DNA of 64,000 nt from Leptolyngbyaceae cyanobacterium. Its GTDB lineage: Bacteria > Cyanobacteriota > Cyanobacteriia > Phormidesmidales > Phormidesmidaceae. A model generated the notes under the pieces. That model searched no databases. It was not told where the DNA came from and saw only the letters and a program-made list of their open reading frames with translations. Both the position numbers and the translations under genes were made by a program. The stretch lies in assembly GCA_965263355.1 (NCBI GenBank), contig CBDHHL010000056.1, positions 1,120,001 to 1,184,000 of the forward strand, read 5' to 3'. Positions 20,273-63,365 of the stretch are shown in pieces; positions within the stretch are counted from its first letter, which is position 1, and each line of letters begins with the position of its first letter.

Positions 20273-20833
20273 TTAATTCATTCTTAACAAGTTAAACAGC
20301 TGAGTAGACGTTATATCCAAATCGATACTATCAGGGACGGTCAGTGTGGCGTCCCCTTCATAGAAACTGGGGAGTTGGTTGGGCTGGTAGACAGCCACTG
20401 ATCGATCAGCTGGATCGATTAGCCAGCCAAGGGAACAACCATGTTGCAAACAATAAACGATATTGTCTACGACCCGGTTGGGTGACTGGTCAGGAGAGAG
20501 AATTTCAATGGTCCAATCGGGCGGGCGGATAACGTTATCAAAGGGTTCTCCATTGGTATCTAGGTCGATGTTTTGCCAGTAAAAAACGGCGATATCTGGG
20601 ACAATGGAACGGGTATCAAAGCTGCAACGTAGTTCTGGAAAGGCATAGGCTATTTGGACGGCTTCGGTGACAGCGTTAATGGTATTGCAGAGTTTAAGCT
20701 GTAGGCGGCTATGTTTGCCTTTGGGCATGACCTTTTGACTGATTTTGCCATCTACAAATTCACTGGCGGGGGTGGTCTCCGGCAGTGCTAGGAAGTCGTT
20801 GAGGGTAAGGGGTTTGGGGATGGCTTGGGTCAT
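20273..20833 (-). CDS. Uma2-family (DUF820) PD-(D/E)XK endonuclease-like protein
   Basis: LTLNDFL.LPE, H..LQ, PELRC, VPDIA, PDW.IEILSP, WLIDP; ATG 20833 preferred. Confidence 0.9.
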   Translation of the reverse strand: MTQAIPKPLTLNDFLALPETTPASEFVDGKISQKVMPKGKHSRLQLKLCNTINAVTEAVQIAYAFPELRCSFDTRSIVPDIAVFYWQNIDLDTNGEPFDNVIRPPDWTIEILSPDQSPNRVVDNIVYCLQHGCSLGWLIDPADRSVAVYQPNQLPSFYEGDATLTVPDSIDLDITSTQLFNLLRMN

Positions 20834-21062
20834 GGTGTCATGGTGGAGCCATGGTGGAATGTAGGTGCATTGTATCGCAGCGAATGGTGAGCAGACGCAG
20901 GGTGGGCAGGCTCGATACCCTATGTTTATTGCCAATGGTTACATCTGCCCACCGTTTTCCCATGGTTGAGTTAGGTGCGATAAACATTATCGATGATGGT
21001 GGGCAAGCTTAGACATTGGTGGTGATACAACAGATATCTATAGGAGGTACCCACCCTACTGG

Positions 21063-24000
21063 TTACTCGATATCGGAATCGTCTGACAACAGATTTTTTA
21101 GGATTGTTTGGGTGAGGGGATGATCTGAAAGTTGTTGTGTTTGGTTGGTTTCGATCACCTTGCGCAAGATAGTAATAAAGTTGTTGCCAACAGTTTGGGT
21201 GTTGGGATGGTCCTGTCCTAGTTTGGCAAGAAAAACTTCTAAGGCTTTGACACCAACGTTAGCTGACTCCGCATAACGTTCTAACCCATAAAGAAACATT
21301 GCCATATTGTTATAGCTTCCGGCGGTGTCGGGATGATCAGGGCCGAGCTGGGTTTCTCTGATTTGAAGGGATCGGGTGTAGAGCGGTTCGGCGTCTTCGT
21401 AGCGACCCATCGTGTCGTACAGCGCTCCTAAATTATTCAGACTCAGAGCGGTATCGGGATGATCAGGGCCGAGCTGGGTTTCATTGATTTGAAGGGATCG
21501 GGTGTAGAGCGGTTCGGCGTCTTCGTAGCGACCCATCGTGTCGTACAGCGCTCCTAAATTATTCAGACTCCGAGCGGTATCGGGATGATCAGGGCCGAGC
21601 TGGGTTTCATTGATTTGAAGGGATCGGGTGTAGAGCGGTTCGGCGTCTTCGTAGCGACCCATCGTGTCGTACAGTCTTCTAAATTATTCAGACTCAGAGC
21701 GGTATCGGGATGATCAGGGCCGAGCTGGGTTTCTTTGATTTGAAGGGATCGGGTGTAGAGCGGTTCGGCGTCTTCGTAGCGACCCATCGTGCGATACAGC
21801 GCTCCTAAATTATTCAGACTCAGAGCGGTATCGGGATGATCAGGGCCGAGCTGGGTTTCTCTGATTTGAAGGGATCGGGTGTAGAGCGGTTCGGCGTCTT
21901 CGTAGCGACCCATCGTGTCGTACAGCAATCCTAAATTATTCAGACTCAGAGCGGTATCGGGATGATCAGGGCCGAGCTGGGTTTCTTTGATTTGAAGGGA
22001 TCGGGTGTAGAGCGGTTCGGCGTCTTCGTAGCGACCCATCGTGCGTACAGTGCTAAATAGAGCGGTATCGGGATGATCAGGGCCGAGCTGGGTTTCATTG
22101 ATTTGAAGGGATCGGGTGTAGAGCGGTTCGGCGTCTTCGTAGCGACCCATCGTGCGATACAGCGCTCCTAAATTATTCAGACTCCGAGCGGTATCGGGAT
22201 GATCAGGGCCGAGCTGGGTTTCTCTGATTTGAAGGGATCGGGTGTAGAGCGGTTCGGCGTCTTCGTAGCGACCCATCGTGCGATACAGCGCTGCTAAATT
22301 ATTCAGACTCCGAGCGGTATCGGGATGATCAGGGCCGAGCTGGGTTTCATTGATTTGAAGGGATCGGGTGTAGAGCGGTTCGGCGTCTTCGTAGCGACCC
22401 ATCGTGTCGTACAGCGCTCCTAAATTATTCAGACTCAGAGCGGTATCGGGATGATCAGGGCCGAGCTGGGTTTCTGATTGATTTAAGGGATCGGGTGTAG
22501 AGCGGTTCGGCGTCTTCGTAGCGACCCATCGTGCGATACAGCTCTGCTAAATTATTCAGACTCAGAGCGGTATCGGGATGATCAGGGCCGAGCTGGGTTT
22601 CTTGATTTGAAGGGATCGGGTGTAGAGCGGTTCGGCGTCTTCGTAGCGACCCATCGTGCGATACAGCCCTGCTAAATTATTCAGACTCAGAGCGGTATCG
22701 GGATGATCGCAGCCAAATCGTTCCTCCGTTATTTCCAAGCAAGATTGATACCAATGGTGTACCTCTGACCATAGACTTTGACTTTCATAAAACCGAGCCA
22801 GACTCACAAATGGCCACAAACTATCCGTACTGTCTTCAATAATATGACTCAGTTCCCGAGCGATCAGTTCCATATGGGGAACCGCTTCACCCAATGCCTG
22901 CCGCGCACTAAGCGTAACAATCTGCTGTGTTTGCTGAGCAAAACTAACCAACGCGTCGGCCACGCCTTTTTGCAATGCAGACGTTTGATCACTGAGTTCA
23001 GTTTCTAACTTACCCACCGTAAATTCACGGATCAACTGATGCAGCTGATAGCTTCCATCCCCACCACTCTGTAACAAATTACGCCTGACCAGCTCCACAT
23101 CCAGCCCATCTTCCAAATCTTCCTCATCCCACTCCGGCAGTGCCCCTTCGATCAATCCCTTCGGTATGGGTGCCGCCGCAAACACCGCCAACAGCCCCAT
23201 CAACGTTTTTGCCGCTGGCGTCAGATCCTGCCAGCTCAACTCAAACGCCGCCTGTATTGGCGCTTCATAAGTCTGCAACTGGTCATAGGCCACCTCTTCC
23301 GAGGCACTATTCAGCGCCTTCGTTTCCAACCGTTTCCGGTTTAGCCTTTCCTGCAGTTTTACAAATGTTGTATTCGGATGCAGTGCCAAATACCGCGCAA
23401 TTAACTCTACCCCCAACGGCAGCCGTCCCACCCATTCACATAAAGCCTCTGCCTCATTTAATTGTTGTTTGACCCGGTGCTCATTATCCACTAACCGCAT
23501 CAACAACGCCATCGCCTCCCCCAGGGGCAACACCCCCAGATCCAACCGATCCACAGGCTTTTCAAACCGCTGCCGCGAGGTCATCAACACTCGAAAGCTA
23601 ACATCCTCCTGGGGCAACAGGTTCTTTATATCGTCATAAGCCTGCACATCATCCAACAACAACAACCTCGCCCCTGGAAAATGATGACACCACTGGTCAT
23701 AACACCAGTTTGCCCTGGCCCTATCGTCCGCCAAATCATCCGGCAACTGCCAGCCAAAAATGTTGGCCGCCCCCACCAACTGCGTCACCAAATTCTGTTC
23801 TCGCACCTTAAAGTACCAGCGCCCACCAGGGTATTGCCCCTTCGCCTCTCGCACATACTGCTGCGCCAGGGCCGTCTTACCAATGCCCCCCATACCCGAC
23901 ACCGCAGTAATCGCCACCTGGTCCGAGTGATTTAGTTTTTGAGCAAGTTGTTCTAGCTCAGACCGTCGCCCAACAAACTCGCGGGCAACAAGATTTTCAA

Positions 24001-24070
24001 GACCATAATCTGGGGTGATTTTCTTTGGCGGTTTCCGTACCGACGACTGCAGCTAATCCTTAGAGGACAT
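21063..24070 (-). pseudogene. NLR-like NB-ARC/STAND ATPase + TPR protein, interrupted in this sequence (three frame-shifting repeat units plus an early in-frame TAG); may be intact in vivo
   Basis: FVGR..EL, GMGGIGKT Walker A, LLLLDDV Walker B, RLPL, LHQLIRE, then 42-aa HPDTA.SLNNL TPR repeats; split in the ORF track as 22562-23917, 21563-22402 and 21063-21662. Confidence 0.8.
21331..22710 (-). repeat. Tandem array of 11 near-identical ~126-bp units encoding 42-aa TPR repeats
   Basis: GGATGATC anchor at 21331, 21457, 21583, 21708, 21834, 21960, 22071, 22197, 22323, 22449, 22576, 22701. Confidence 0.95.
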
Positions 24071-24563
24071 TACCAAGGTTTAAAGTTCCGACATCACCAA
24101 TGTTATAAACAGTAGCCCCATCACTGGCGTTGTTAACAGTTGCACCAGGGGCATTAACATTAACCTGATTATTGTTGCCACCAAAATTTTGCTGTACCGA
24201 ATCAGCATTCATATCATTCATATTAAAGACTACCTGATGCAGATCGTCAGCAACCTGTTCAACTTCCTTGGCAAAGTCATCGCTAGCCTCTATTGCTTTG
24301 TCGATATAGTCCTTGAGCACTTTAATATCGTCTTCAGAGCCCTTGGCGGCAGCGTCTAACCGTTGGTCAATTCCTTTATCCTTAAAGCAACGCTGCCAGA
24401 TCAAATCACCCAGCTGCATGATTTTTTCATTGGCCTTTTCGATGACGGTGCCGCCCAGCTTCGTAGCGGTTTCTTCAAGTTTTTGGCCAGCGCCATCAAA
24501 GAATTTGTCGAGGACGATTTTGGCTAGGGCTGTAGCAGCGGTCAAGGAAAGTGCTTCGAGCAT
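24060..24563 (-). CDS. Small helical NLR-associated protein (Bell/HeLo-like candidate) with an N/Q/G-rich C-terminal tail
   Basis: Hydrophobic N-terminal helix, helical body, tail VQQNFGGNNNQVNVNAPGATVNNASDGATVYNIGDVGTLNLG; abuts the NLR gene; family call is inferred. Confidence 0.7.
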   Translation of the reverse strand: MLEALSLTAATALAKIVLDKFFDGAGQKLEETATKLGGTVIEKANEKIMQLGDLIWQRCFKDKGIDQRLDAAAKGSEDDIKVLKDYIDKAIEASDDFAKEVEQVADDLHQVVFNMNDMNADSVQQNFGGNNNQVNVNAPGATVNNASDGATVYNIGDVGTLNLGNVL

Positions 24564-24800
24564 AGATTTTGTGCAGATAGTCAGGGTACCTACGTTTTAG
24601 CAATTTTGTTTGATATTGTCAGGTACCCCAAGAGGGTATGTTTGCGCTTGGTAGGGGCAGGGGATGAGGGCTATCCTCTTTGCTAAAAAAAATTTCGCTT
24701 TGGTCAGCGAATTTTGACGGGGCCTAAGCTGATAGCTGGCTCTATGGGTGGAATGGTGGGCGGTGTCCACCCTACGGGGGCTCCGGCTGGGCAAAATTAG

Positions 24801-49269: not shown

Positions 49270-50790
49270 CTACCTTGAGAAGAAGTTATCCTTCTTGCGA
49301 ACAAACAGATCCGTAAAGAAGGAGATAACCGTGCGCTTTTCTGTCTTGATATTTGCATTTAGCGACATACCAGACTGTAGCGTATAGGTTTCACCCCTAG
49401 ATTCGAGGACCTGAGACTGCAGCTGAATCTCTGCCGGGAATCGATAGAATGGATAAACCTCATCGGGGGGTAAGGCGTCAGAACCAATGCTGATTAGGTG
49501 ACCGTCGATGTCGCCGTACTCACTATAGGTAAACGCATCAATCCGCACATCAACTGCCTTACACTCAGCCTTGATGCCTGCCTGGTCCTCAGCTCGAACC
49601 GCAGCACGACAATCATCGGTTAACTGAACAAAACCGATGTCTTTGTTAGGAATAAAGACGCGGGCAATCAGGTTCTCTTGGGGAACAATTTCTAAAATCG
49701 GTTCGGTGGAGTTAGCGGCATAGCCAGGCTGGTTGGCCTTGAGGTTAAACACAACGCCACTGACAGGGGCTGTTAGCTCACGAAACTGTAATTGTTCTTC
49801 GAGCTGGGCAATGCGACTACCTAGTTCTTGTCGTTGGGTCTCATTTTGTAAGACCGCCTGCCCCAGGTCACTGTCAATGGATGAAATGCGCTCACGATTC
49901 GTACGAATCTGGTCGCGACGGATGCGTTCAAATTCGAAATCGGCACGGGCAATTTCTGCCTCAGCCTGCTTAATTTGAGCATCAAGACGGCTAATTTCAT
50001 CCTTGAGCGTATTAACCCGAGTGATGCGAGTGCTCACTTCTTGTTCTTGTTGTAGTCGACTGAGTTCTGCAACAGCGCCCTCTTCTTCTAGCCACTGTAA
50101 TCGGCTGAGAATTTCGTCATTGGTGTCCAGGTCGTTTTCAGCGTTGATCAATTCAAACCGTGCCTGACTTAATCGGGCTTGTAGGTCAGTAATTTGCTCA
50201 CGGTTTTGAGTTTGCCGAGCCTGGACTTCTTCCCTGGCAATATCCACATCGGCAGCAGCGACGGCAGATAGGTCACTGGTATCACCATCAATTTGGGCTT
50301 GATAAATTTGGTTGCTGGCTTCTAATTCGTTTCGTTCTTCTAATCGCTGTTGTAAATCTCCAGCAACGGCCCCTGTAACCACAATGTCACTACCATTGCC
50401 ATTTTGGGCGCGATAAATTTCTGTCTGGTCTGAGAGATATTCACGAATGCTGAGTAACGATTCTAGCTCGGCTTTGGCAGCTGCTTGGTTAAACGTAATT
50501 AATACATCCCCTTTTTTTACCAGATCGCCTTCCTTAACATGGATTTTTTCGATCACACCGCCACTGGGGGTTTGGACTGGCTGTACCACGCCTACGGGTT
50601 CTAACTTGCCCTGGGCTGGGATGGTTTCTTCCACCTTGGCCAGAAACGCCCACAGAACGCAAATGCTTGTAACGCTCAGAATGGCCCACACAATCGCCCG
50701 TGACCACACCGGGGACTGCCGTAAGATGACGGGCTGGTCGAAGGGTTGGACCTGACTGGCACCGTTGTTTTGTAGTTGTTGAGATGTCAT
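49270..50790 (-). CDS. HlyD-family type I secretion membrane-fusion protein
   Basis: N-terminal TM, GKLEP, VKEGD.V.KG, coiled coil, APVSG.V, DIGFV, LQSGM. Confidence 0.92.
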   Translation of the reverse strand: MTSQQLQNNGASQVQPFDQPVILRQSPVWSRAIVWAILSVTSICVLWAFLAKVEETIPAQGKLEPVGVVQPVQTPSGGVIEKIHVKEGDLVKKGDVLITFNQAAAKAELESLLSIREYLSDQTEIYRAQNGNGSDIVVTGAVAGDLQQRLEERNELEASNQIYQAQIDGDTSDLSAVAAADVDIAREEVQARQTQNREQITDLQARLSQARFELINAENDLDTNDEILSRLQWLEEEGAVAELSRLQQEQEVSTRITRVNTLKDEISRLDAQIKQAEAEIARADFEFERIRRDQIRTNRERISSIDSDLGQAVLQNETQRQELGSRIAQLEEQLQFRELTAPVSGVVFNLKANQPGYAANSTEPILEIVPQENLIARVFIPNKDIGFVQLTDDCRAAVRAEDQAGIKAECKAVDVRIDAFTYSEYGDIDGHLISIGSDALPPDEVYPFYRFPAEIQLQSQVLESRGETYTLQSGMSLNANIKTEKRTVISFFTDLFVRKKDNFFSR

Positions 50791-50792
50791 GA

Positions 50793-53783
50793 CTAACCGT
50801 TCCCTTGTTGTTGGTGTAGACAGTAGTAACGCCCCTTAAGTGCCAAAAGCTCATCGTGGGTGCCTTCTTCGACGATAGAGCCCTGGTCCATCACGATAAT
50901 ATTATTGGCGGTACGTAGGGCTCCCAGTCGGTGGGTAATAAAGAAGACGGTGCGTCCTTTGGCCCATTGCATCAGGTTAGCGGAGACTTGAGCCTCGGTG
51001 TCGTAGTCAAGGGCACTGGTGGCCTCGTCCAAAATTAGTAGCCGAGGATTTTGCAAAATTGTGCGTGCGATCGCAACCCGCTGTCGCTGTCCCCCCGATA
51101 AGGATGACCCTCGTTCTCCTACCCGAGTGTTGTAGCCCACCGGTAGCCCCATAATAAAGTCATGACAGCAGGCAATCTGAGCAGCCTGAATTACTTCTTC
51201 AGTAGTCGCTTCAGGATTGGTCAACGCGATATTTTCCTGAATGGTGCCCTCAAACAGCAGACTATCCTGGGGCACAATACCTACCTGTCGTCGTAAGGAA
51301 TATAGCTCCACCTTATTAATATCGTAATTATCAATCAGGATACGGCCCGAGTTCGGAGCATATAGCCTGGGTAACAGTTTCATCATGGTACTTTTACCCG
51401 AACCACTGAGCCCCACTAGCCCGACAAATTGACCCGCTGGAAACTCGGCATTGATATTTGAGAGCTGCAATGGGCCAGATGCCCCAAATCGGAAAGAGAC
51501 ATTCTCATAGCGGACATGACCTTTCACGTCCGGCATCGGAATTTGGCTACGCTGCTCGTCCTCTTGTTCTTGGGGATGGTCGATGATATCGCTCAAACGC
51601 TCCAAGGACAGGGCCGTTTCTTGGAAGTTTTGCCATAGCTGGGTCAATCGCAACAACGGCTGAGTCACATACCCCGCAATAATTCGGAAGGCAATTAATT
51701 CACCCAGGGTCAACTCGCCTTCAAGCACCAGGTAAGCACCAAACCACAGCACCAGCAAACCCGAAATTTTATTCAGGAAGTTACTAGCAGAGCTAGCGGT
51801 GGTGGAGGTAAGCACCGTCTTAAACCCGTCACTCACATAGCGGCCATATCGGTCCTGCCATTTCCAACGGGTATTCAGCTCAATATTCTGGGCCTTAACC
51901 GTTTGAATACCCGATAGGGCCTCCACCAAAAATGATTGGGTCTTGGCATTTTGCTCTGCCTTAGCCCGCAACTGACGCCGGACAATCGGTGACACAAAAA
52001 AGGTCAACCCCAAAAAGAGGGGAATGGTTGCCAGGGATACCACCGTCAGCTTGATGCTGTAAATCAGCATAACGAGGATATAAACCACTGAGAAAACCGC
52101 ATCCAACACCACGGTCAGGGCCGTACCGGTGAGAAATTGACGGATATTTTCTAGCTCGTTCACTCGGCTGGACAGTTCACCCACTGGACGCCGGTCAAAA
52201 TATTTCAGCGGCAACCGCAGCAGGTGGTCGATAGTTTGAGACGCCAGGGTCATGTCGATACGGTTGGTGGTATCGACAAATAGATAGGTACGCAGACTGC
52301 CAAGAATGGCCTCAAACACAGCCACAATCACCAGGAATATGCCAAGCACGTGCAGTGTATCGACGCTTTGCTGCACAATCACTCGGTCAATAATCACCTG
52401 AATCATCAGGGGATTGGCCAAGCCAAATATTTGATAGAAGAATGAAGCAGCTAATACCTCAACCAGAATCCACTTGTACTTCTGGAGGGAAGGCACAAAC
52501 CAAGACAACCCAAAGCGTTGCTGGGGCGTCTGAGCGGTGGCCTCTAATAAAAGCACCTCACCCTCAGGTCCCCAGATTTCTTCAAAGGCTTGGGGGGAGT
52601 GGCGCACGGTTCCCCGGTCTCCAGGGCTACCAATGACGTATTGCTTTGCTGAGGTTTCATAAATGATGGCGTAGCTATCGCGCCATTTAATCAAAGCTAA
52701 CTTGGGCAGTCGGCCAATGGCACTGGCAGGTACCTTAGCGAGCTGAGGTTTAAGGCCCAACATGTCGGCAACCGCCCCGCAAGAAGGTAGGGAAACTTGG
52801 CCCAAACGCGCCTTTTGGTTGGCCAGAACCTTGCGTACAACATCCCGCTTAAAGGGCATATTGAAATACTTGGCCAACATCTCAAAGCAGGCAACCAGGG
52901 TGTCTAGCTCACCGCGAGCACGGATATGGGGATAAGCCTGATTGCTAAGTTCTGTGTCGTTGTCAATATCTTGGGGAATCGCATTGGCGTAGGGAATCGT
53001 CGACTCAGCAGCCGATGTATCTGGTGCGTCCGCCTCTCCCCAAGGGTCATCGTTTAACACTTCTACCGTTTTGGTTTCCACCTGGGTAGCCAGAATGGCA
53101 TGGGGAATACCGATTAGACGAGCGCCACTGGCACTAATTACTTCAGTCGAGGCGATGGTAGGACTCAACTGATCGCCTTGTTCATGAAACGCTACGTTCC
53201 CACGGCTAATAAACCAGAGGTTTTGCTTATCTAAGTCACTATGTGTCAGCGGACCATTAGGGACTTCTTTAACCGTAATTCCCTGACGGAGAATAGTTTC
53301 TGTCAGGGTAGCGATATCGCCAACATTATGAGCCTGCTTTTCAAAATATTTGCCGAGAATTTCGAATAGCTCTGCCAGGTAGCAATGGTTTTGGACGGCA
53401 TTGGCAAAGTTGGGCTGACTGGAAATAAGCTGCTTGATGATATTGACTGGGATGGCGGCTGCCACAATTTCAGTGGATGCGATCGCGCTTTCGCACGCCA
53501 CTCCCCTGGCAGGACCTGCCAGACCCAAAATGTCCCCAGGACCCAATAATTTTAACGTAATTGGATTTTTGGTGTAAGGGTCATATCCCAGTAGGCGTAC
53601 CTGACCCTCTTTAATTAGGATCACCTGATGGGGCATCGTTTCACGCCGCAGGATAGGCTGGCCCATGCGGTATCTCAACAGTTGACTTTTATCAGCCAAC
53701 GTCTGTAATACCTCTGCCGGTAAGCGATCAAACGGCGTCATATCGCTTAGCAGTTGATATATAGGGTTCACAGTATAAGTCAT
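50793..53783 (-). CDS. HlyB-like type I secretion ABC transporter (cNMP-binding + C39-like + TMD + ATPase)
   Basis: GLSGSGKST, LSGGQRQR, LILDEATSALD; N-terminal cNMP-binding-like and C39-like domains. Confidence 0.93.
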   Translation of the reverse strand: MTYTVNPIYQLLSDMTPFDRLPAEVLQTLADKSQLLRYRMGQPILRRETMPHQVILIKEGQVRLLGYDPYTKNPITLKLLGPGDILGLAGPARGVACESAIASTEIVAAAIPVNIIKQLISSQPNFANAVQNHCYLAELFEILGKYFEKQAHNVGDIATLTETILRQGITVKEVPNGPLTHSDLDKQNLWFISRGNVAFHEQGDQLSPTIASTEVISASGARLIGIPHAILATQVETKTVEVLNDDPWGEADAPDTSAAESTIPYANAIPQDIDNDTELSNQAYPHIRARGELDTLVACFEMLAKYFNMPFKRDVVRKVLANQKARLGQVSLPSCGAVADMLGLKPQLAKVPASAIGRLPKLALIKWRDSYAIIYETSAKQYVIGSPGDRGTVRHSPQAFEEIWGPEGEVLLLEATAQTPQQRFGLSWFVPSLQKYKWILVEVLAASFFYQIFGLANPLMIQVIIDRVIVQQSVDTLHVLGIFLVIVAVFEAILGSLRTYLFVDTTNRIDMTLASQTIDHLLRLPLKYFDRRPVGELSSRVNELENIRQFLTGTALTVVLDAVFSVVYILVMLIYSIKLTVVSLATIPLFLGLTFFVSPIVRRQLRAKAEQNAKTQSFLVEALSGIQTVKAQNIELNTRWKWQDRYGRYVSDGFKTVLTSTTASSASNFLNKISGLLVLWFGAYLVLEGELTLGELIAFRIIAGYVTQPLLRLTQLWQNFQETALSLERLSDIIDHPQEQEDEQRSQIPMPDVKGHVRYENVSFRFGASGPLQLSNINAEFPAGQFVGLVGLSGSGKSTMMKLLPRLYAPNSGRILIDNYDINKVELYSLRRQVGIVPQDSLLFEGTIQENIALTNPEATTEEVIQAAQIACCHDFIMGLPVGYNTRVGERGSSLSGGQRQRVAIARTILQNPRLLILDEATSALDYDTEAQVSANLMQWAKGRTVFFITHRLGALRTANNIIVMDQGSIVEEGTHDELLALKGRYYCLHQQQGNG

Positions 53784-56752: not shown

Positions 56753-58492
56753 CTAAAAACTAGGTTGATAATCCAACAAAAAGTACAGCCCATTTTCCTG
56801 CAGTGAATCGCCAGAATCATCGGTATCAGTCAAGGGAATACCATAATCCAGACGCACGGATAAATCAGGGTTCACCCGCCATCGTAGACCAACACCCAAG
56901 CCCGCCAAAAACGATGGATCTGGATCTGGAATTTCGTTATTCCAACCCACACCAGCCTCTAAAAAAGGAGTTACCTGTAATGTATTGGGATTTTTGGTAA
57001 CGGGAATCCGGAATTCTACTGACCCTGTAATCGCATTGTCAGCTACCAGCTGGTTTTGACTGTAGCCCCGCACGGTACCAACACCGCCCAAGCTAAAACG
57101 TTCTACGGGTAATAACCCATCGGGTGTAAGCTGGGCACCGACACGGGTTAAGACTAAAAATCGCGGTGATACTTGCTCAATCCATTGAAACTGGCCTAAC
57201 CAGCTAAAAAAGCGACCATCAATACCAGAATCATTAACCGTGGCATCAAACAGGTCTAACCCCACGCTAAACTGCGAGCGTGCGGCTAAGACTCGCGACT
57301 GACTGCGTTTAACCCAATCTTGATAAAACCGTAGGGCACTGATCTGGGAACGACCGTCTTCAGGACCTAACGAAAATGAAAAGGGAATATCATCCAAAAT
57401 AAAGCTACGGCTACGCTTCCAGTCAAAATCTAAGCCGAGGGCAAACTCTTCGGCAGGAGTGCGGACAATGGGTTGGCGAAATCCTGCTGATACGGTGGTA
57501 GTTTCACTGCGAATACCCACATCTTCAAAAGCATCTTGAATGATACGGCTATCGCTATTGCTGAATCTTAGTTGAAATGTGCCATTCTTCGCATTGATGG
57601 GAATGGCATAGCTGATGTCATATAGGTTAAGCCCTTCAGTAGAGCCAAAGCTCCCAGTTAAACGATCCCCCAGACCCAGGGGGTGACGGGCTGTAAACCC
57701 TATATTGACACCTTCTGAGCCAATACTAGGAGAACGATAGTTGTCGGTGCTAAAAGAAAGGGCAAAGGCATCAACTTCTTCGAGATCTAAAATCAGTAGA
57801 CTTTTGCCAGGGCCATTACCAGCGGTTAGTTCGGCATTGACCCGCTCTAGGGATGGATCAAGTTGTAGAAGCTGCAGTCCCCGTTCTAAATCCTGTTGGT
57901 TAAAGGGAGCTTCCATAGCCTGGCCCAACCGGTCACGAATATAGCTTTGGCGCAGTCGTACTAAGCCATTGATCTGTAGGGCTTCGATTTCTCCTTCAAC
58001 AACTTGAATATTAACGGTTGTGTTGTCGGGGCTTAATTCTTGATTGTTGGGGACAAAGGCTCCGGAGGTAATATAGCCTGAGGTGATATATAGCTGGGTG
58101 ATTCGCGATCGCAAATTAAATAAATCAGACAGCCGAATCTCTTTGCCTTCGTAACAAGCGACCTGTTCTGCAATCTCCTCTTCCAGAATGGTATTACCCA
58201 GCACATTAATGGTCGTTGCTTGAAATGCAATTTCTGGAGTATCAGCTAAGGCCGGGCACTCTTGCAAGTTAAGCACATCAGGAATACCAGCCTCAGGCAA
58301 GATATCGTCCTGGGAGCCAGGCTGCTCTTCTGGAATCGGCTCCTGAGGTGTCTGTGATTCCACCTCGGGGTTAAAGCCTTCGGGCAACGCAGGAACGTCT
58401 GAGTTGGGGGCTTCTTGGGCAATGGCTGACAGACCGTAGCCAACAATTGCTAGATAACTGAAAATTGCGACAAAAAATCGGGGGCTAGGCAC
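56753..58492 (-). CDS. ShlB/FhaC/HecB (TpsB) two-partner secretion outer-membrane transporter
   Basis: Signal peptide, POTRA (GYITSGA), DNYRSPSIG, GGVGTVRGY, RLDYGIPL, aromatic C-terminus. Confidence 0.92.
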   Translation of the reverse strand: MPSPRFFVAIFSYLAIVGYGLSAIAQEAPNSDVPALPEGFNPEVESQTPQEPIPEEQPGSQDDILPEAGIPDVLNLQECPALADTPEIAFQATTINVLGNTILEEEIAEQVACYEGKEIRLSDLFNLRSRITQLYITSGYITSGAFVPNNQELSPDNTTVNIQVVEGEIEALQINGLVRLRQSYIRDRLGQAMEAPFNQQDLERGLQLLQLDPSLERVNAELTAGNGPGKSLLILDLEEVDAFALSFSTDNYRSPSIGSEGVNIGFTARHPLGLGDRLTGSFGSTEGLNLYDISYAIPINAKNGTFQLRFSNSDSRIIQDAFEDVGIRSETTTVSAGFRQPIVRTPAEEFALGLDFDWKRSRSFILDDIPFSFSLGPEDGRSQISALRFYQDWVKRSQSRVLAARSQFSVGLDLFDATVNDSGIDGRFFSWLGQFQWIEQVSPRFLVLTRVGAQLTPDGLLPVERFSLGGVGTVRGYSQNQLVADNAITGSVEFRIPVTKNPNTLQVTPFLEAGVGWNNEIPDPDPSFLAGLGVGLRWRVNPDLSVRLDYGIPLTDTDDSGDSLQENGLYFLLDYQPSF

Positions 58493-58912
58493 AACCGGCT
58501 TAAAATACTGCTTTGTAATATGAACCGTTGCTTATCATACTAAAGCTGTCAATTTTACATTGTTTAAAGAATTACTAATGTTGGAAAACTTGACATAGCT
58601 TGGCCAATCCTAGGCCCATTCCCCCATTAGTGGCATTGAGGGGGGAATAGGTAGGGGCGCAGTCCCGTCGTAGGTTGGGCAGAGTCCCGAACCCCAACAA
58701 GCCTATGCAATGGACAATGGGCAGCAGCGGCAGGATTCAATTCATAAGAGAAACGCCTTATGTAGATTTCTGCAATCTAGTTTTTCTAATTAGGGAAATT
58801 GACATTAACCGTTTTGTCCGGTGATTTGCAGGATTGTTGCTTTTAAGCTTGAGCTAACGATGCTGAACGCAGTCTTACAGCCAACTCAACTCCTGAAATG
58901 TAAAAGGTCCCA

Positions 58913-59056
58913 ATGAACAAGACGCTCCTACGCCTGACCAGTTCTAGTTTGTTAGCGACTACATCAATGTTTGCGTTGGGTTTAGCTAAACCCAGTATGC
59001 CAAAGGCATCGCCAACTCTCTCAATTAATCAAGCCGCTGTTTTAGCCTGGAACTAG
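58913..59056 (+). CDS. Putative 47-aa peptide with a signal-peptide-like N-terminus (not in the ORF track)
   Basis: MNKTLLRLTSSSLLATTSMFALGLAKPSMPKASPTLSINQAAVLAWN; AAAAGG upstream. Confidence 0.45.
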   Translation: MNKTLLRLTSSSLLATTSMFALGLAKPSMPKASPTLSINQAAVLAWN

Positions 59057-59070
59057 GGAGAACAAAAAAG

Positions 59071-59217
59071 ATGGAAAAGTTTTTGACAGCATTGTTAGTC
59101 ACCTTTGGTTTGGTCATTTTACACAATGTGACAAGCGTCCCAATAACCGAGAGTCAATCCTCTGGGGTGATTTTCTCCGAAATTTCTTTCCAAGAAAATA
59201 CATTACTCTATCGTTAG
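59071..59217 (+). CDS. Putative 48-aa peptide with a hydrophobic signal/anchor N-terminus (not in the ORF track)
   Basis: GGAG RBS; MEKFLTALLVTFGLVILHNVTSVPITESQSSGVIFSEISFQENTLLYR. Confidence 0.5.
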   Translation: MEKFLTALLVTFGLVILHNVTSVPITESQSSGVIFSEISFQENTLLYR

Positions 59218-59346
59218 TGATTTTGTTATGGGTCCATGTCTCTACACCATCTTCCTAGGTTGACGATGCAAATCATAACGTCAGATTCTGAGACACATCT
59301 GGTAGGCTAAAGGCAAACGCCCCCTGCATTTTCCGGAGCTGTCGCT

Positions 59347-62028
59347 ATGCGTCGTTTTTGCCTGAGGTTACTGACCCGACGGACCTTTACGATTCTCTGC
59401 AGTTTAAGCCTCCTAGTCACCCTTTGGGTCGGTCATCCTTTCAAAAAGACGGCACCACTGGCCCAGGCGCAAGATGTGCGTCAGTTAGTGCAAACAGGGG
59501 TGGATTATTACCAAACTGGAGACTTTATCGCCGCCATTGACCCATGGCTGACCGCCTATGGTGTCTATCAAGCGAGCCAGGATCTGCCTGCCCTGGCTAT
59601 TGTCAGCGAAAATCTAGCACGGGCTTATCAACAAATGGGGCGTACCCCAGAAGAAATTACCTACTGGCAGCAGGCCATAACAGTGATTGAGCGGCTGGGG
59701 GATCGCCAAAAACTAGGGCGCTTATTAACGGAGGAAGCACAGGCCTATAGCCGTTTGGGGCAGCATCGCCGTGCCATTACCCTCCTATGTGGTACGGCTC
59801 CCGATGCAGGTGACTGTCAGCCTAATAGTGCCTTAAGGTTAGCCCAGGATACGGCGGACCCATTGGGCCAGATAACAGCTTTAGGGAGTTTAGGAGAAGC
59901 GTATCGGTCAAGCGGCAATCTGGACATTGCCGAAGATTATCTGATGGCAGGATATGCCATTGGTCGTAACCTGGATAATCAAATTCTGGTCGCCTCGCTG
60001 CTGAATGGTTTAGGTAACATATCCGCTAATGTTGCCCTGATCAATGATCGACGGGCAGAGGAATCCCTGGATCGGGGTGATACAAACCTGGCTATAGCCC
60101 TCGAAGCTAACGCTAACACTGACAATGCCAAAGCCATTAATTACTTTTTAGAAAGCTATACCCTGGGCGTTAACAATCAGCGTAATGACATCCAGCTCTA
60201 TGCCTTGCTCAATTTGATCCCGGCCTATGAACGCGCCGGGGATACTGCGGCAGTGGAGACGTATCGAGGGTTGGCGATCAACGTACTACAACAGCTGCCC
60301 GATGCAAAGCCTAAAGCCTTTGCCGCTATTAAGTTAGCTGATTTCTTAGATCCTCCTGAAGTACGGCGATCGCAACGTACCTTGAGTGCTACACCTATGC
60401 CATCTGCTGACCTAGAAGCCCAAGCAATTGCCCTATTAGAGCAGGCCCGTGATATTGGTGAAACAATCGATAATCCTCGGCTTGTGTCCTTTGCCCTGGG
60501 TAAGCTGGGGACATTGGACGAGCGTGCTGGTCGCTATGATGCGGCGCTAGAAAAAACACAGCAGGCTCGCTTTGCTGCCGATCAAGACCGGGCGGCCCAG
60601 GATAGTCTCTACTTGTGGGAATGGCAGTTGGGACGTATTTACAATGCCTTAGGCAAGCAAGAGGATGCCAGTCAGGCCTATGGTCAGGCCGTATCCGTAT
60701 TAGATGAAATCCGCAGTGATATTCTCAGCGCCAATCGAGATCTACAGTTTGATTTTCGCGATACGGTAGAACCGCTTTATCGTCAGTATGCAGAGCTGAG
60801 TCTGGCAGATGTCCCTAAAAGAAAAACCCTCAAACAAAAGGACCCTACATTTAAAGACCTTGAAACTGCACTAACCACCCTTAACTCACTTAAAGTGGCT
60901 GAATTGCAGAGTTATTTTGCCAATGACTGTGTCATTGTCCCCGCTGAAATCCGTGCGGATGAGGTGACTCAGAATACACCTACAGGCGTATTGAGTACAG
61001 CGATTTCAGACAAAGGATTGACGGTCATCTTAAGTTTGCCGGATGGTGGCCGCAAGGTTGTCCCTATTCTGGAGTCTGAAGCGGTAGTAGAGGCCACAAT
61101 TAATGAGTTTCGCAAAAGTTTAGAGCTTGGCAGCAGGGATTATACATTTAAAGATCGAGAAGCAATACAGCTGTATAGATGGTTGATTGCCCCCTTTGAG
61201 GAAGACCTTAAGGCAACGGGTGTGGAGACTCTGGTGTTTGTCAATGATGGTCTCTTGCGAAGCGTACCAATGGCAGCTTTGTATGACGGTCAGCAGTATT
61301 TAATTGAAAAATATGCGGTTGCAACCACACCCAGCCTCACCTTGACCACACCCAAAAAGGTAGAACGAGGCAAGCTAAATGCATTACTAGTCGGTGTGAG
61401 TGAGCCTTCACAACTACCTGAAAAGACATTTATTCCCTTACCTGCAGTGAATAAAGAGTTAGAGGATTTGTCAAAACAACTGCCCGATAGCACGATTTTG
61501 TTAAATCAGGATTTTTCCATTGAGGCAGTTCAACAGACACTGGCAGCAAAGGATTATCGCATTTTGCACATGGCTACCCATGGTGAATTTGGCTTTGCCC
61601 CGGAGAACAACTTTATTATTGCCGGTGCCAAACAAACTGGTGAGCTAAGTAGCTATAACCAAAAGCTAACCATCAGTCAGTTAGATGCGTTAATTCGCGA
61701 AATTAATGACCCTACCCGCGAACCGATTGAATTACTCACACTATCTGCTTGCGAAACCGGGATTGGTGATAATCGTTCTACCCTGGGGTTAGCAGGGGTG
61801 GCTGTCCGGGCAGGGGTACGCAGTGCTATCGCTACCCTGTGGACCGTCAGCGACAATTCCACCGCTGAAGTCATGGCTAACTTTTATGAAAAGTTGCAGG
61901 AACCATCATTGACTAAGGCCCAGGCACTACAACAGGCGCAGCTGGCTATGTTACAGTCCGATGACGGTAGTGGTAAGTCTCATCCATACCGCTGGGCACC
62001 GTTTATTCTGATTGGGAACTGGCTATAG
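59347..62028 (+). CDS. Exported TPR + CHAT (caspase-like) domain protein
   Basis: Signal-like N-terminus ending AQA, TPRs, ILHMATHG and LTLSACETG His/Cys dyad, HPYRWAPFILIGNW. Confidence 0.93.
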   Translation: MRRFCLRLLTRRTFTILCSLSLLVTLWVGHPFKKTAPLAQAQDVRQLVQTGVDYYQTGDFIAAIDPWLTAYGVYQASQDLPALAIVSENLARAYQQMGRTPEEITYWQQAITVIERLGDRQKLGRLLTEEAQAYSRLGQHRRAITLLCGTAPDAGDCQPNSALRLAQDTADPLGQITALGSLGEAYRSSGNLDIAEDYLMAGYAIGRNLDNQILVASLLNGLGNISANVALINDRRAEESLDRGDTNLAIALEANANTDNAKAINYFLESYTLGVNNQRNDIQLYALLNLIPAYERAGDTAAVETYRGLAINVLQQLPDAKPKAFAAIKLADFLDPPEVRRSQRTLSATPMPSADLEAQAIALLEQARDIGETIDNPRLVSFALGKLGTLDERAGRYDAALEKTQQARFAADQDRAAQDSLYLWEWQLGRIYNALGKQEDASQAYGQAVSVLDEIRSDILSANRDLQFDFRDTVEPLYRQYAELSLADVPKRKTLKQKDPTFKDLETALTTLNSLKVAELQSYFANDCVIVPAEIRADEVTQNTPTGVLSTAISDKGLTVILSLPDGGRKVVPILESEAVVEATINEFRKSLELGSRDYTFKDREAIQLYRWLIAPFEEDLKATGVETLVFVNDGLLRSVPMAALYDGQQYLIEKYAVATTPSLTLTTPKKVERGKLNALLVGVSEPSQLPEKTFIPLPAVNKELEDLSKQLPDSTILLNQDFSIEAVQQTLAAKDYRILHMATHGEFGFAPENNFIIAGAKQTGELSSYNQKLTISQLDALIREINDPTREPIELLTLSACETGIGDNRSTLGLAGVAVRAGVRSAIATLWTVSDNSTAEVMANFYEKLQEPSLTKAQALQQAQLAMLQSDDGSGKSHPYRWAPFILIGNWL

Positions 62029-62052
62029 CCTGCCTGCCCATTCCCCATCGCC

Positions 62053-62922
62053 CTAAGGCGCAGGCGTAGTTGCTGCGACAATCGCTAAAATATCCTGCCG
62101 TAACGGGTCAGATTCGGGACTAATGCTATTGGCTAAATCAGATAACAGTCCACCACGGGTTTGTTGAGCCGTTAATGTGGTTGCCTCGGCCACCTCTGCG
62201 ATCGCATTGTACCAAATGCCTGCTTGACCATAGGCGAGGGCCCGTTCAGCATCTGTTGTTGCTGTTGATAATGCCTGAGACAGGGTAGCAGTTGGAGCCA
62301 CTACTTCAAACGATAACTCTTGGACCAACGAGCGAGATGGATAGGCCGGGTTACACTCAACAATGACCTGCCAGCGATAATTTACCCCTGGAGAAAGCGC
62401 CTTCTCTGTTTGGGGTAGCTGATATTTAAAAAATCCAGCCGTATAGTCCAAACTTTCTTCGAAAATGGGAATGGGGGTATTGGCCTCGTTGGGCTCCAGA
62501 AGTCTAAAAATGATCGTAAATGGAGTTTCTGACTCGGGTAGGTACCAAACAAATTCTGGATGAGTAGACACTGTTTGACCCATCACAAGTTCTGTATCCT
62601 TAGGCCCCAGAGTAGTAAATGTGGTGTCGGTCAAACCCAAACAACCGCCGTAGCGCGAACCGCCTGGGGTAGCTGGCCCCCGTAAGGGTCTGGCATCTTT
62701 AGGAGGCGTAAAGTAGGTTCCCGCTGTTATGGTGGGCATGTCACCTGCGTCCGCGTCTTCGGGGGGGATAAACGCATCGTTTTCAGTTGTCAGCGCAAAA
62801 TCCAGCTTAGAACTTGGTAAGGTTTGCTCTACCTGAAGGCTGAATGGCGTAGCCTCACCTCCCAGTAACAAGAGAACTGGCGTTACAACGAGCAGAGCAG
62901 ATGTAAGTTTGGTGACAACCAT
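62053..62922 (-). CDS. DUF928 domain exported protein
   Basis: Signal-like N-terminus, GGSR..GC, T.STHP.F.WY.P, YRWQV...C, Y..AGIWY.A; ATG 62922 preferred. Confidence 0.85.
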   Translation of the reverse strand: MVVTKLTSALLVVTPVLLLLGGEATPFSLQVEQTLPSSKLDFALTTENDAFIPPEDADAGDMPTITAGTYFTPPKDARPLRGPATPGGSRYGGCLGLTDTTFTTLGPKDTELVMGQTVSTHPEFVWYLPESETPFTIIFRLLEPNEANTPIPIFEESLDYTAGFFKYQLPQTEKALSPGVNYRWQVIVECNPAYPSRSLVQELSFEVVAPTATLSQALSTATTDAERALAYGQAGIWYNAIAEVAEATTLTAQQTRGGLLSDLANSISPESDPLRQDILAIVAATTPAP

Positions 62923-63365
62923 GATTAATAATCGGGAATACAACCTAAAGAAATGATCCAATACATTCGGTTGATATTTCAAGACACTGTCTGTGGAGTA
63001 CTGAAAACAGTTTGTTGTTTGCTCCGTACTCGGCCTTGACGTTGTAAGCGATGGCAGTAACGTATTACACGAATACTCCAATACACAACGGTAACGATTA
63101 GCAGGATTGTACTTAACCAATGTAACCAAGGCCAGTGCAAACCGAGACGAGTCAGTGTAAATACGGCAATATCATCAACAAAGTTTAAAGCTAGCAATAA
63201 GCTTTTGTGAATTAAGCCAGTGAGGTTACTAAATTGCATGATGTCAAGGTCCAGGTCACAATTGCCATAACTTTAAGCAAGTTGACCGATGTAATCAGCT
63301 ACAAAATCCGCCAATTGAATTACGGAAAACGGGTAAATTGCCTTGCACATATGTGCAAAGTAGCG

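What the first reader, a model, noticed from the sequence alone, without database searches (positions are those of the whole stretch)
21063..24563. Candidate amyloid-signalling NLR immune/cell-death pair: helical effector with an N/Q/G tail next to an NB-ARC-TPR receptor
Seen: a 167-aa protein with a hydrophobic N-terminal helix and helical body ends in a ~50-aa low-complexity tail (NADSVQQNFGGNNNQVNVNAPGATVNNASDGATVYNIGDVGTLNLG, with GATV repeated). It abuts an NB-ARC + TPR gene that has no N-terminal effector domain. Established: in fungi (HET-S/NWD2) and multicellular bacteria (Bell domain/BASS motifs), NLRs activate adjacent HeLo/Bell-type effectors by amyloid templating. Unusual here: the NLR frame has no matching amyloid motif at its N-terminus (LQSSVRKPPKKITPDYG...), so coupling would need another route, such as a recoded fusion or a different interface. 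The Bell assignment is inference.
Basis: partly seen in the sequence, partly recalled or inferred. Interest (0 to 1): 0.8.

Follow-up and report, generated by a model that had tools for sequence, protein, structure and literature searches.

The report
Stop-readthrough links effector to immune sensor
In many filamentous cyanobacteria a small probable cell-death protein and the immune sensor behind it look like one gene interrupted by a single stop codon, which a conserved RNA fold probably lets some ribosomes read through, so that one gene makes both partners with the same amyloid-type signalling tail.

Summary
In detail: a 167-aa helical protein with an N/Q/G tail precedes an NB-ARC-TPR frame that has no start codon and no motif copy. 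The window's junction is out of frame, but three contigs spanning it and 17 of 26 related loci put both parts in ONE frame, split by a single TAG or TGA. A gapless ~45-nt element follows the stop: 8-nt spacer, covarying 5-bp stem, probable pseudoknot; no Rfam match. In 401 cyanobacterial genomes, 36 of 120 full-length homologues carry it: 34 TGA, 2 TAG, no TAA, and the next frame is open in all 36. Element and motif copy exclude each other: 0 of 29 versus 31 of 48. Best reading: programmed stop-codon readthrough makes much free Bell-like effector and a little effector-motif-NLR fusion. This is a third way to encode the Bell/BASS/NLR amyloid circuit, beside gene pairs and full fusions. Not shown: readthrough itself, amyloid formation, toxicity, direct homology to named Bell proteins. 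The window's copy has at least four frame breaks (probably assembly error). I found no such element in print.

The parts
24060..24563 (-). Bell-like helical effector ORF as assembled (167 aa, ends at TAA); 169 codons ending at TAG 24055 with the letters of runs X1/X2
   Evidence: 88% identity to the Adonisia turfae protein
24501..24563 (-). N-terminal hydrophobic helix, acidic residue at position 3, family consensus MxEPxxxLTA
24075..24212 (-). N/Q/G/V/I-rich tail (residues 118-163), candidate amyloid signalling motif
   Evidence: composition; family members duplicate this tail at NLR N-termini; amyloid not tested
24069..24071 (-). Site where the window differs from near-identical contigs and loses the frame; probable consensus error from mixed alleles, or a strain lesion
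   Evidence: tables 3, 4, 8
24053..24055 (-). In-frame TAG between effector and NLR, candidate readthrough codon; T before, C after
24010..24052 (-). Conserved RNA element: 8-nt spacer 24052-24045, stem 1 24044-24040 with 24031-24027 (4 of 5 pairs here), 8-nt loop, A-rich linker, stem 2 24036-24034 with 24015-24013 (2 of 3 pairs here)
   Evidence: no Rfam family
23291..23962 (-). NB-ARC (STAND NTPase) domain
   Evidence: PF00931 E 1.8e-14
21063..24052 (-). NB-ARC-TPR sensor reading frame without a start codon ahead of the domain; broken by indels in this assembly
21210..22705 (-). Array of 12 near-identical 42-aa TPR units (126 bp), three one-base indels and one unit 15 bases short
   Evidence: TPR_12/TPR_10
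24056..24588 (-). Exchangeable effector cassette: other contigs leave the window sequence at 24056 and rejoin at 24588, keeping the TAG and element
   Evidence: tables 5 and 7

Best explanation
Effector and sensor are one reading frame with a programmed leaky stop. Most ribosomes stop at the TAG/TGA and release a free Bell-like protein ending in its amyloid-type tail. A conserved fold 8 nt downstream (stem plus probable H-type pseudoknot) and a pyrimidine-stop-C context let a minority continue, probably by a near-cognate tRNA, giving an effector-tail-linker-NB-ARC-TPR fusion (about 1,160 aa here if the indels are errors). When the TPRs sense their ligand (phage or other non-self; unknown), the NTPase oligomerises, clusters its tails into an amyloid seed and converts the excess free effector, whose hydrophobic first helix attacks the membrane. 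Shown: single frame, stop type, missing start, RNA-level constraint, exclusion with the motif copy. Inferred: readthrough and the inserted residue. Taken from the known Bell/Bab/HET-S systems: amyloid templating, membrane damage, immune role.
For: Frame lock: 17 of 26 loci; 36 of 36 element loci open in frame for at least 60 codons, against 0 and 2 of 36 in the other frames. A pattern without the stop gave 31 hits in 22 of 401 genomes, 0 in the reversed control; 30 of the 30 fetched follow an in-frame TGA, 5 of them new loci. RNA-model search: 9 of 11 new hits have the same layout. No TAA in 36, against 38 of 84 without the element (Fisher p 6e-8, relatedness not corrected). Nucleotide constraint: codon +3 is NCG in 50 of 50 with four amino acids; stem cells 203 Watson-Crick, 34 G-U, 4 A-C, 9 other of 250; synonymous divergence 0.00 at codons 3-10 against 0.56 downstream in 9 relatives. 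Covariation score reached by 0 of 500 shuffles in two alignments. Codons upstream of any start are under amino-acid selection: pN/pS 0.11 at codons 16-20, 0.38 at 16-45; first start positions are not conserved (21-46). Motif copy 0 of 29 with, 31 of 48 without the element. The two forms interleave on the tree (14 changes, at least 5 forced). The 8-nt spacer plus pseudoknot is the MuLV geometry and UGA-CUA a known leaky context (PMC3159437).
Against: No RNA, ribosome or peptide data were available. TAG is the commonest stop in this window (17 of 35 genes), so it is not rare in this lineage. The window's own copy is out of frame, has three more breaks and imperfect stems. Stem 2 is short and needs different registers in the two alignments; the count of pairs with two-sided change in A5 was reached by 24 of 500 shuffles. 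The structure was read off these same sequences, and 25 of the 30 pattern hits were already known loci. No TGG (sense) version of the element was found in the 401-genome sample; protein P0047 has W at that place but comes from a 1.7-kb contig of unknown genetic code. 7 of 36 element loci showed no P-loop frame by my regular expression, and some partners are not NLRs (CHASE2, membrane proteins). Structure-stimulated readthrough is documented in the papers I read only for eukaryotic ribosomes.
Confidence: 0.7

Rival explanations
1. Termination and re-initiation: the element directs a non-canonical start at the codon right after the stop (or a little further), so the NLR is a separate protein without the motif and couples to the effector by another surface.
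For: Codon +1 is CTG in 21 of 50. Annotators start the partner at an in-frame TTG 24-102 codons downstream in 3 of 3 plasmid records. Frame openness would follow if the start is at +1.
Against: Codon +1 is CTA in 24, CCG in 2, and CTT, CTC, AAG once each, and these are not known start codons. It does not explain why TAA is excluded, nor why the element replaces the motif copy (0 of 29 vs 31 of 48).
Confidence: 0.1
2. Same two products, other chemistry: A-to-I editing turns UGA or UAG into a Trp codon, or the ribosome hops over the stop; the fold is the recognition or pausing signal, perhaps switched by infection or by a phage suppressor tRNA.
For: TGA and TAG are each one A-to-G change from TGG, TAA is two; TAA never occurs. 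The base before the stop is a pyrimidine in 36 of 36. In-frame stop hopping is named as a possible cause of apparent readthrough in PMC5009743, which knows no natural case.
Against: The stop lies outside the paired region. The context does not match the UACG motif of TadA (recalled, no call). No deaminase gene was seen in the neighbourhoods I looked at; this was not searched systematically.
Confidence: 0.1
3. Selenocysteine or pyrrolysine insertion.
For: Most stops are TGA with a downstream hairpin, the layout of a bacterial SECIS (recalled).
Against: SelA PF03841 in 0 of 5 element-bearing genomes, tRNA-Sec over cut-off in 0 of 5. The same element follows TAG in 10 of 50. No Rfam SECIS/PYLIS match. 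Pyrrolysine genes were not searched.
Confidence: 0.01
4. No recoding: the element is a DNA-level recombination or gene-conversion anchor for swapping effector and sensor modules, or the stops are nonsense mutations in decaying fusions, and the NLR is not made in full.
For: Cassettes do swap at exactly this point, partners differ behind it, and the window copy has four or more breaks; L010 and L074 have an extra internal stop.
Against: The stop sits at the same place across effectors about 20-30% identical and across syntenic loci of several genera. Downstream frames stay open and under purifying selection. G-U exceeds A-C 34 to 4 on the sense strand. One to three copies per genome, no arrays.
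Confidence: 0.06

Closest known systems
Bell-domain / BASS / NLR gene pairs and all-in-one Bell-NLRs of multicellular bacteria (Dyrka et al., bioRxiv 10.1101/2020.01.06.895854)
   Same: Short helical protein with hydrophobic first helix and acidic residue 2/3, N/Q/G/V/I-rich C-terminal motif, collinear NB-ARC/NACHT-TPR neighbour, filamentous cyanobacteria; 31 loci of this family are classical pairs, and fusions exist (P0047, P0076).
   Different: Here the NLR has neither its own start nor its own motif copy; it shares frame with the effector across one stop. The paper's screen needed the motif in the annotated NLR N-terminus (sections 7, 19) and could not see this; 'readthrough', 'stop codon' and 'frameshift' do not occur in its main text.
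Bab/Agp antiphage system of E. coli (Ibarlosa et al., bioRxiv 10.1101/2024.11.07.622273); fungal HET-S/NWD2
   Same: Amyloid motif behind a small helical death domain with a 'MEPIS'-type N-terminus; family consensus here MxEPxxxLTA.
   Different: Two genes with two motif copies; Agp is a TPR-GreA/B-PIN protein; no recoding described in the sections read (abstract, 4, 8).
MuLV gag-pol readthrough signal; alphavirus UGA-CUA/CGG plus 3' stem (Firth et al., PMC3159437)
   Same: Stop, 8-nt spacer, compact pseudoknot; UGA-CUA context; raised synonymous conservation.
   Different: Viral RNA on eukaryotic ribosomes; here a bacterial chromosomal and plasmid element with a smaller fold, used with both UGA and UAG.
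Phage Q-beta coat readthrough; bacterial SECIS
   Same: In-frame passage of UGA on bacterial ribosomes (3-5% for Q-beta, as quoted in PMC13517186).
   Different: Q-beta context is UGAACU and the passages read name no such fold; SECIS needs Sel machinery, not found in 5 of 5 genomes tested.

Membership tests
Bell domain | Short protein with ~100-aa all-helical (five-helix) domain | tested here: met
   Six helical segments over residues 7-114, confident model; family mostly 125-170 aa
Bell domain | Hydrophobic N-terminal helix, acidic residue at position 2 or 3 | tested here: met
   Hydropathy 1.61, E3; 97 of 106 family members acidic at 2 or 3
Bell domain | Sequence homology to the founding proteins (ONI86675.1, RCJ33357.1) | not testable with these tools
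   No Pfam/NCBIfam model matched; the founding sequences were not retrievable; bioRxiv supplements closed; the PMC8086366 data file timed out
Bell domain | Fold likeness to HeLo/MLKL/RPW8/Rx-CC death domains | tested here: inconclusive
   NRG1.1 CC-R Z 4.6 (rmsd 4.2, 84 aligned) and Rx-CC Z 4.5 (rmsd 4.6, 89 aligned) are tied with unrelated bundles; best Z 5.8; Foldseek no hit at E 0.001
BASS effector/NLR pair | C-terminal motif rich in Q,N,G,V,I and poor in K,P,L | tested here: met
   59% and 7% in the window tail; 50% and 11% over 35 element-bearing tails
BASS effector/NLR pair | Adjacent collinear NB-ARC/NACHT + repeat gene | tested here: met
   29 of 36 element loci have a P-loop frame downstream
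BASS effector/NLR pair | Matching motif at the N-terminus of a separately started NLR | tested here: not met
   Absent in the window and in 0 of 29 element loci; present in 31 of 48 family loci without the element
BASS effector/NLR pair | Motif forms amyloid and is templated by the NLR | not testable with these tools
   Needs fibril and prion assays; no ArchCandy or BASS profiles at hand
Structure-stimulated stop-codon readthrough signal | ORF2 in frame, lacks its own start, under coding selection | tested here: met
Structure-stimulated stop-codon readthrough signal | Conserved 3' structure about 8 nt behind the stop with covariation and synonymous constraint | tested here: met
   stem 2 less secure than stem 1
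Structure-stimulated stop-codon readthrough signal | Extended product detected and dependent on the element | not testable with these tools
   No RNA run or proteome available
Selenoprotein (SECIS) recoding | SelA and tRNA-Sec in the genome | tested here: not met
   0 of 5 genomes over cut-off for either; completeness of these genomes not given

The most novel reading that the evidence does not exclude
Filamentous cyanobacteria carry an undescribed family of chromosomal readthrough pseudoknots that works on UGA and UAG without selenocysteine or pyrrolysine. They use it as a portable joint that gives NLRs and other sensors (NACHT, CHASE2, membrane proteins) an amyloid seed identical to their effector's and sets the effector-to-sensor ratio; a second clade does the same by -1 frameshifting. 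The readthrough level might itself rise on infection or stress.
Probability: 0.6. Interest if true: 0.92.

Novelty: new variant of a known kind. Interest (0 to 1): 0.86.

Why it matters
It would give a natural, conserved, structure-stimulated readthrough signal for bacterial ribosomes, a kind of signal described in the papers I read only for eukaryotic viruses and genes, and testable with a 50-nt reporter insert. It explains Bell-like genes whose NLR neighbour has no matching motif: these NLRs would be annotated with wrong, truncated starts (3 of 3 plasmid records). It also solves a design problem of amyloid signalling: seed and target motif cannot drift apart when one sequence encodes both, and the ratio of effector to sensor is built in. 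The element was in 27 of the 65 genomes with a family match, so it is common, not a curiosity.

Tried and rejected
No whole genome is held for the window, so its own Sel genes, suppressor tRNAs and paralogues were not checked. No RNA holder listed. Pfam, NCBIfam and PADLOC gave no credible family for the effector; PDB sequence search best E 0.13; the Atlas returned unnamed cyanobacterial clusters. Four fold searches were inconclusive; Bab, HeLo and MLKL were not listed, which excludes nothing. A metagenome scan with the NB-ARC part found nothing. The element was not found in viral contigs (exact pattern) or phage records. A tail-oligomer prediction never ran, so self-assembly has no verdict. 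Promoter and terminator scans were at chance level. Minimum-free-energy folding of single sequences gave stem 1 in only part of the 17 and not in full for the window; it cannot show pseudoknots. Rejected: general assembly noise (25 other window proteins scanned look whole); CTG start as sole explanation; selenocysteine; P0047's Trp as proof of the inserted residue. My note says 10 of 11 new RNA-model hits fit; the recount is 9 of 11 (L054 and L058 do not; L047 came). Literature searches found no report of readthrough-fused bacterial NLRs; the library lacks most subscription journals, including the journal version of Dyrka et al.
Full report
What is there. The window is from a filamentous marine-type cyanobacterium: the small protein is 87-88% identical to proteins of Leptothoe sp. 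LEGE 181152 and Adonisia turfae. On the minus strand a 167-aa ORF (24563-24060) is followed by an NB-ARC-TPR frame from 24052 to 21063. The small protein has no Pfam or NCBIfam match. Its model has six helices to residue 114 and a low-confidence tail; the first helix is hydrophobic and the tail is rich in Q, N, G, V, I. The NLR frame begins right behind a TAG at 24055-24053 and has no ATG, GTG or TTG until codon 46, which lies inside the NB-ARC match (residues 31-254).

The window's junction is the odd one out. Contigs of runs X1 (1,586 nt, 3 other letters, 1 gap) and X2 (193 nt, 2 other letters, 1 gap) lack one base and differ at two at 24069-24071. With these letters the small ORF runs 169 codons to the TAG, in frame with the NLR, and ends in the same six residues as the homologue in L010. 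A third contig (X3, depth 2.6) is another allele whose ten gap letters sum to +2, which also restores the frame, and it has the window's letters at 24070-24071 (tables 3, 4). A mixed consensus of two alleles is therefore a likely cause; a real lesion in the assembled strain is not excluded. X1 and X3 are one sample, and X1-X3 one study. The TPR array has three further one-base indels and one short unit, while 25 other window proteins scanned look whole. Other contigs leave the window at 24056 and rejoin at 24588, so a different effector allele sits before the same TAG (tables 5, 7).

Relatives. Of 26 loci fetched with the effector alignments, 17 have the effector, one stop (11 TAG, 6 TGA) and an NTPase frame continuing in frame; one was cut by a contig end, four (L013, L017, L021, L023) look by eye like two genes with a motif copy, and four were other or broken. 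L026 repeats L007 at the junction, and L010 has an extra internal stop. The upstream neighbourhood is shared with L001, L003, L007, L011 and L025, at about 80% DNA identity in housekeeping genes, so the stop has lasted through long divergence.

An RNA element follows the stop. The 45 or so bases behind the stop align without gaps: 8-nt spacer, 5-bp stem, 8-nt loop, A-rich linker, and a 3-4-bp helix between loop and linker end. In 17 close sequences 93.4% of cells pair and 5 of 8 pairs change on both sides; 0 of 500 shuffles reach this. In 33 distinct others 93.6% pair and the covariation score is 0.308 against 0.199 (0 of 500), though the number of pairs with two-sided change is reached by 24 of 500 and stem 2 needs a register shifted by one. 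The tool warns that related sequences can beat shuffles, and I read the structure from these sequences. Independent of pairing, codon +3 is NCG in 50 of 50 while coding four amino acids, and G-U pairs outnumber A-C 34 to 4. In nine close relatives synonymous divergence is 0.00 at codons 3-10 and 0.14 at 1-15, against 0.56 further on. Rfam has no match. The window's copy keeps 4 of 5 and 2 of 3 pairs.

Unbiased survey. The family profile matched 126 places in 65 of 401 cyanobacterial genomes; all were fetched and gave 127 segments, of which I dropped 6 fragments and 1 fusion. A weight matrix that leaves out the stop scored 38 segments above the null maximum; 36 of these hits lie directly behind the effector's stop, one inside a separately started NLR (L130) and one is likely chance. 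Two of the 36 were in the training set. The 36 lie in 27 genomes (my count from the locus lists). Their stops are 34 TGA, 2 TAG, 0 TAA, against 38 TAA in the other 84; the frame is open for at least 60 codons in 36 of 36; the base after the stop is C in 35 and the base before a pyrimidine in 36. Over all 120, TGA followed by C has an open frame of 100 or more codons in 41 of 49, TAA followed by C in 0 of 10; about a dozen of the unscored TGA-C loci look like length variants of the element. A stop-free pattern hit 31 places, none in the reversed control; all 30 fetched follow an in-frame TGA behind a small ORF of 124-211 codons (stop to stop), five of them new. An RNA-model search gave 11 new hits, 9 with this layout. 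TAG is ordinary in the window's lineage (17 of 35 stops), so the stop-type argument rests mainly on the TGA group.

Why a fusion is needed. In BASS pairs the NLR carries a copy of the effector's motif (10.1101/2020.01.06.895854, sections 5, 7). In this family 31 of 48 loci without the element have such a copy ahead of the P-loop and 36 of 48 have an ATG; with the element the figures are 0 of 29 and 2 of 29. L120 and L130 have an ATG, a motif copy and a stop-less remnant of the element, which suggests the pair form can arise by duplicating the tail. On a quick tree of 121 effector domains (tails removed, 118 columns, many forks unresolved) the element label needs 14 changes, at least 5 forced by strong branches. 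Full fusions also exist (P0047, P0076 with NB-ARC, P0056 with TIR). The stretch between stop and first possible start is under amino-acid selection (pN/pS 0.11 at codons 16-20, upstream of every start in all nine), so it is translated.

Mechanism. I put in-frame passage of the stop, by any chemistry, at about 0.8, and near-cognate readthrough helped by the fold as the likeliest form. The geometry equals that of the MuLV signal, and UGA-CUA is a known leaky context (PMC3159437, passages). Selenocysteine is unlikely. Editing of A to I would also explain the ban on TAA and remains open. The immune output is inferred from Bell, Bab and HET-S: sensor oligomer, amyloid seed, release of helix 1, membrane damage (10.1101/2024.11.07.622273, abstract and sections 4, 8). 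Partners behind the element include NB-ARC, NACHT-type NTPases, a CHASE2 sensor and membrane proteins, so not every case need be an NLR or antiphage.

Known or new. The locus works like a Bell/BASS/NLR module but fails the pair's defining feature, a motif on a separately started NLR; Bell membership rests on matching features, not on direct homology, and fold searches do not decide it. Papers seen: 10.1101/2020.01.06.895854 (abstract, sections 5-9, 19, 34, term search); 10.1101/2024.11.07.622273 (abstract, sections 4, 8); PMC3159437, PMC9375231, PMC5009743, PMC13517186, PMC13506858 (passages); PMC12261475 (term search, no hits); PMC8086366 (supplement list only; data file not read). Supplementary tables of the Bell paper, which I could not see, may list some of these loci and would settle which BASS family the tail belongs to. 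Eight searches found no readthrough-fused bacterial NLR and no such element.

Verdict. Comparative evidence is strong, experimental evidence absent, and the window's own copy is damaged as assembled. Interest 0.86.

Noticed in passing
L145, L147, L151, L162, L163, L174 (effector stop; six genomes): A second recoding candidate in another clade of the family: the effector ends C_CCA_AAG (five) or A_AAA_AAG (L162) before TAA; the NTPase frame opens 3-10 codons earlier in the -1 frame, with no ATG in 75 codons and no motif copy; a long hairpin is predicted 12-16 nt downstream in five of six. Looks like -1 frameshifting serving the same purpose.
   Followed up: partly
window 24056-24588: Contigs of the same runs carry a different effector allele between fixed boundaries, ending in another beta-rich tail in frame with the same TAG.
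   Followed up: partly
L211 3015-4805; L142, L143, L146, L149: The element or a variant joins the effector in frame to a CHASE2 sensor (Calothrix brevissima plasmid) or to proteins with an early membrane helix rather than an NLR.
   Followed up: no
L120, L130: Two-gene pairs whose NLR starts with ATG, a motif copy and a stop-less remnant of the element: possible intermediates between the two encodings.
   Followed up: partly
window 21210-22705: TPR units are near-identical except at a few codons (for example the residues after SLNNL), as in fast-varying NLR repeat arrays; contig depth near 200 against about 10 shows many similar arrays in the samples. L001's array breaks at a scaffold gap.
   Followed up: no
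L072, L091, L100: The NTPase behind the effector starts with its own ~100-aa helical domain before the motif copy; L091 has two effector genes in tandem with such a gene between.
   Followed up: no
window 20273-20935 (-): Uma2 family endonuclease-fold gene directly downstream of the NLR.
   Followed up: no
window 56753-63129: ShlB/FhaC-type transporter, TPR-CHAT protein and DUF928 genes cluster; a type I secretion pair (peptidase C39 ABC transporter, HlyD) lies at 49270-53783.
   Followed up: no
L047 1495-1546: Leptolyngbya sp. PCC 7375 has a second, diverged element (TGA) joining another effector to a NACHT-like NTPase, besides its TAG locus L003.
   Followed up: partly
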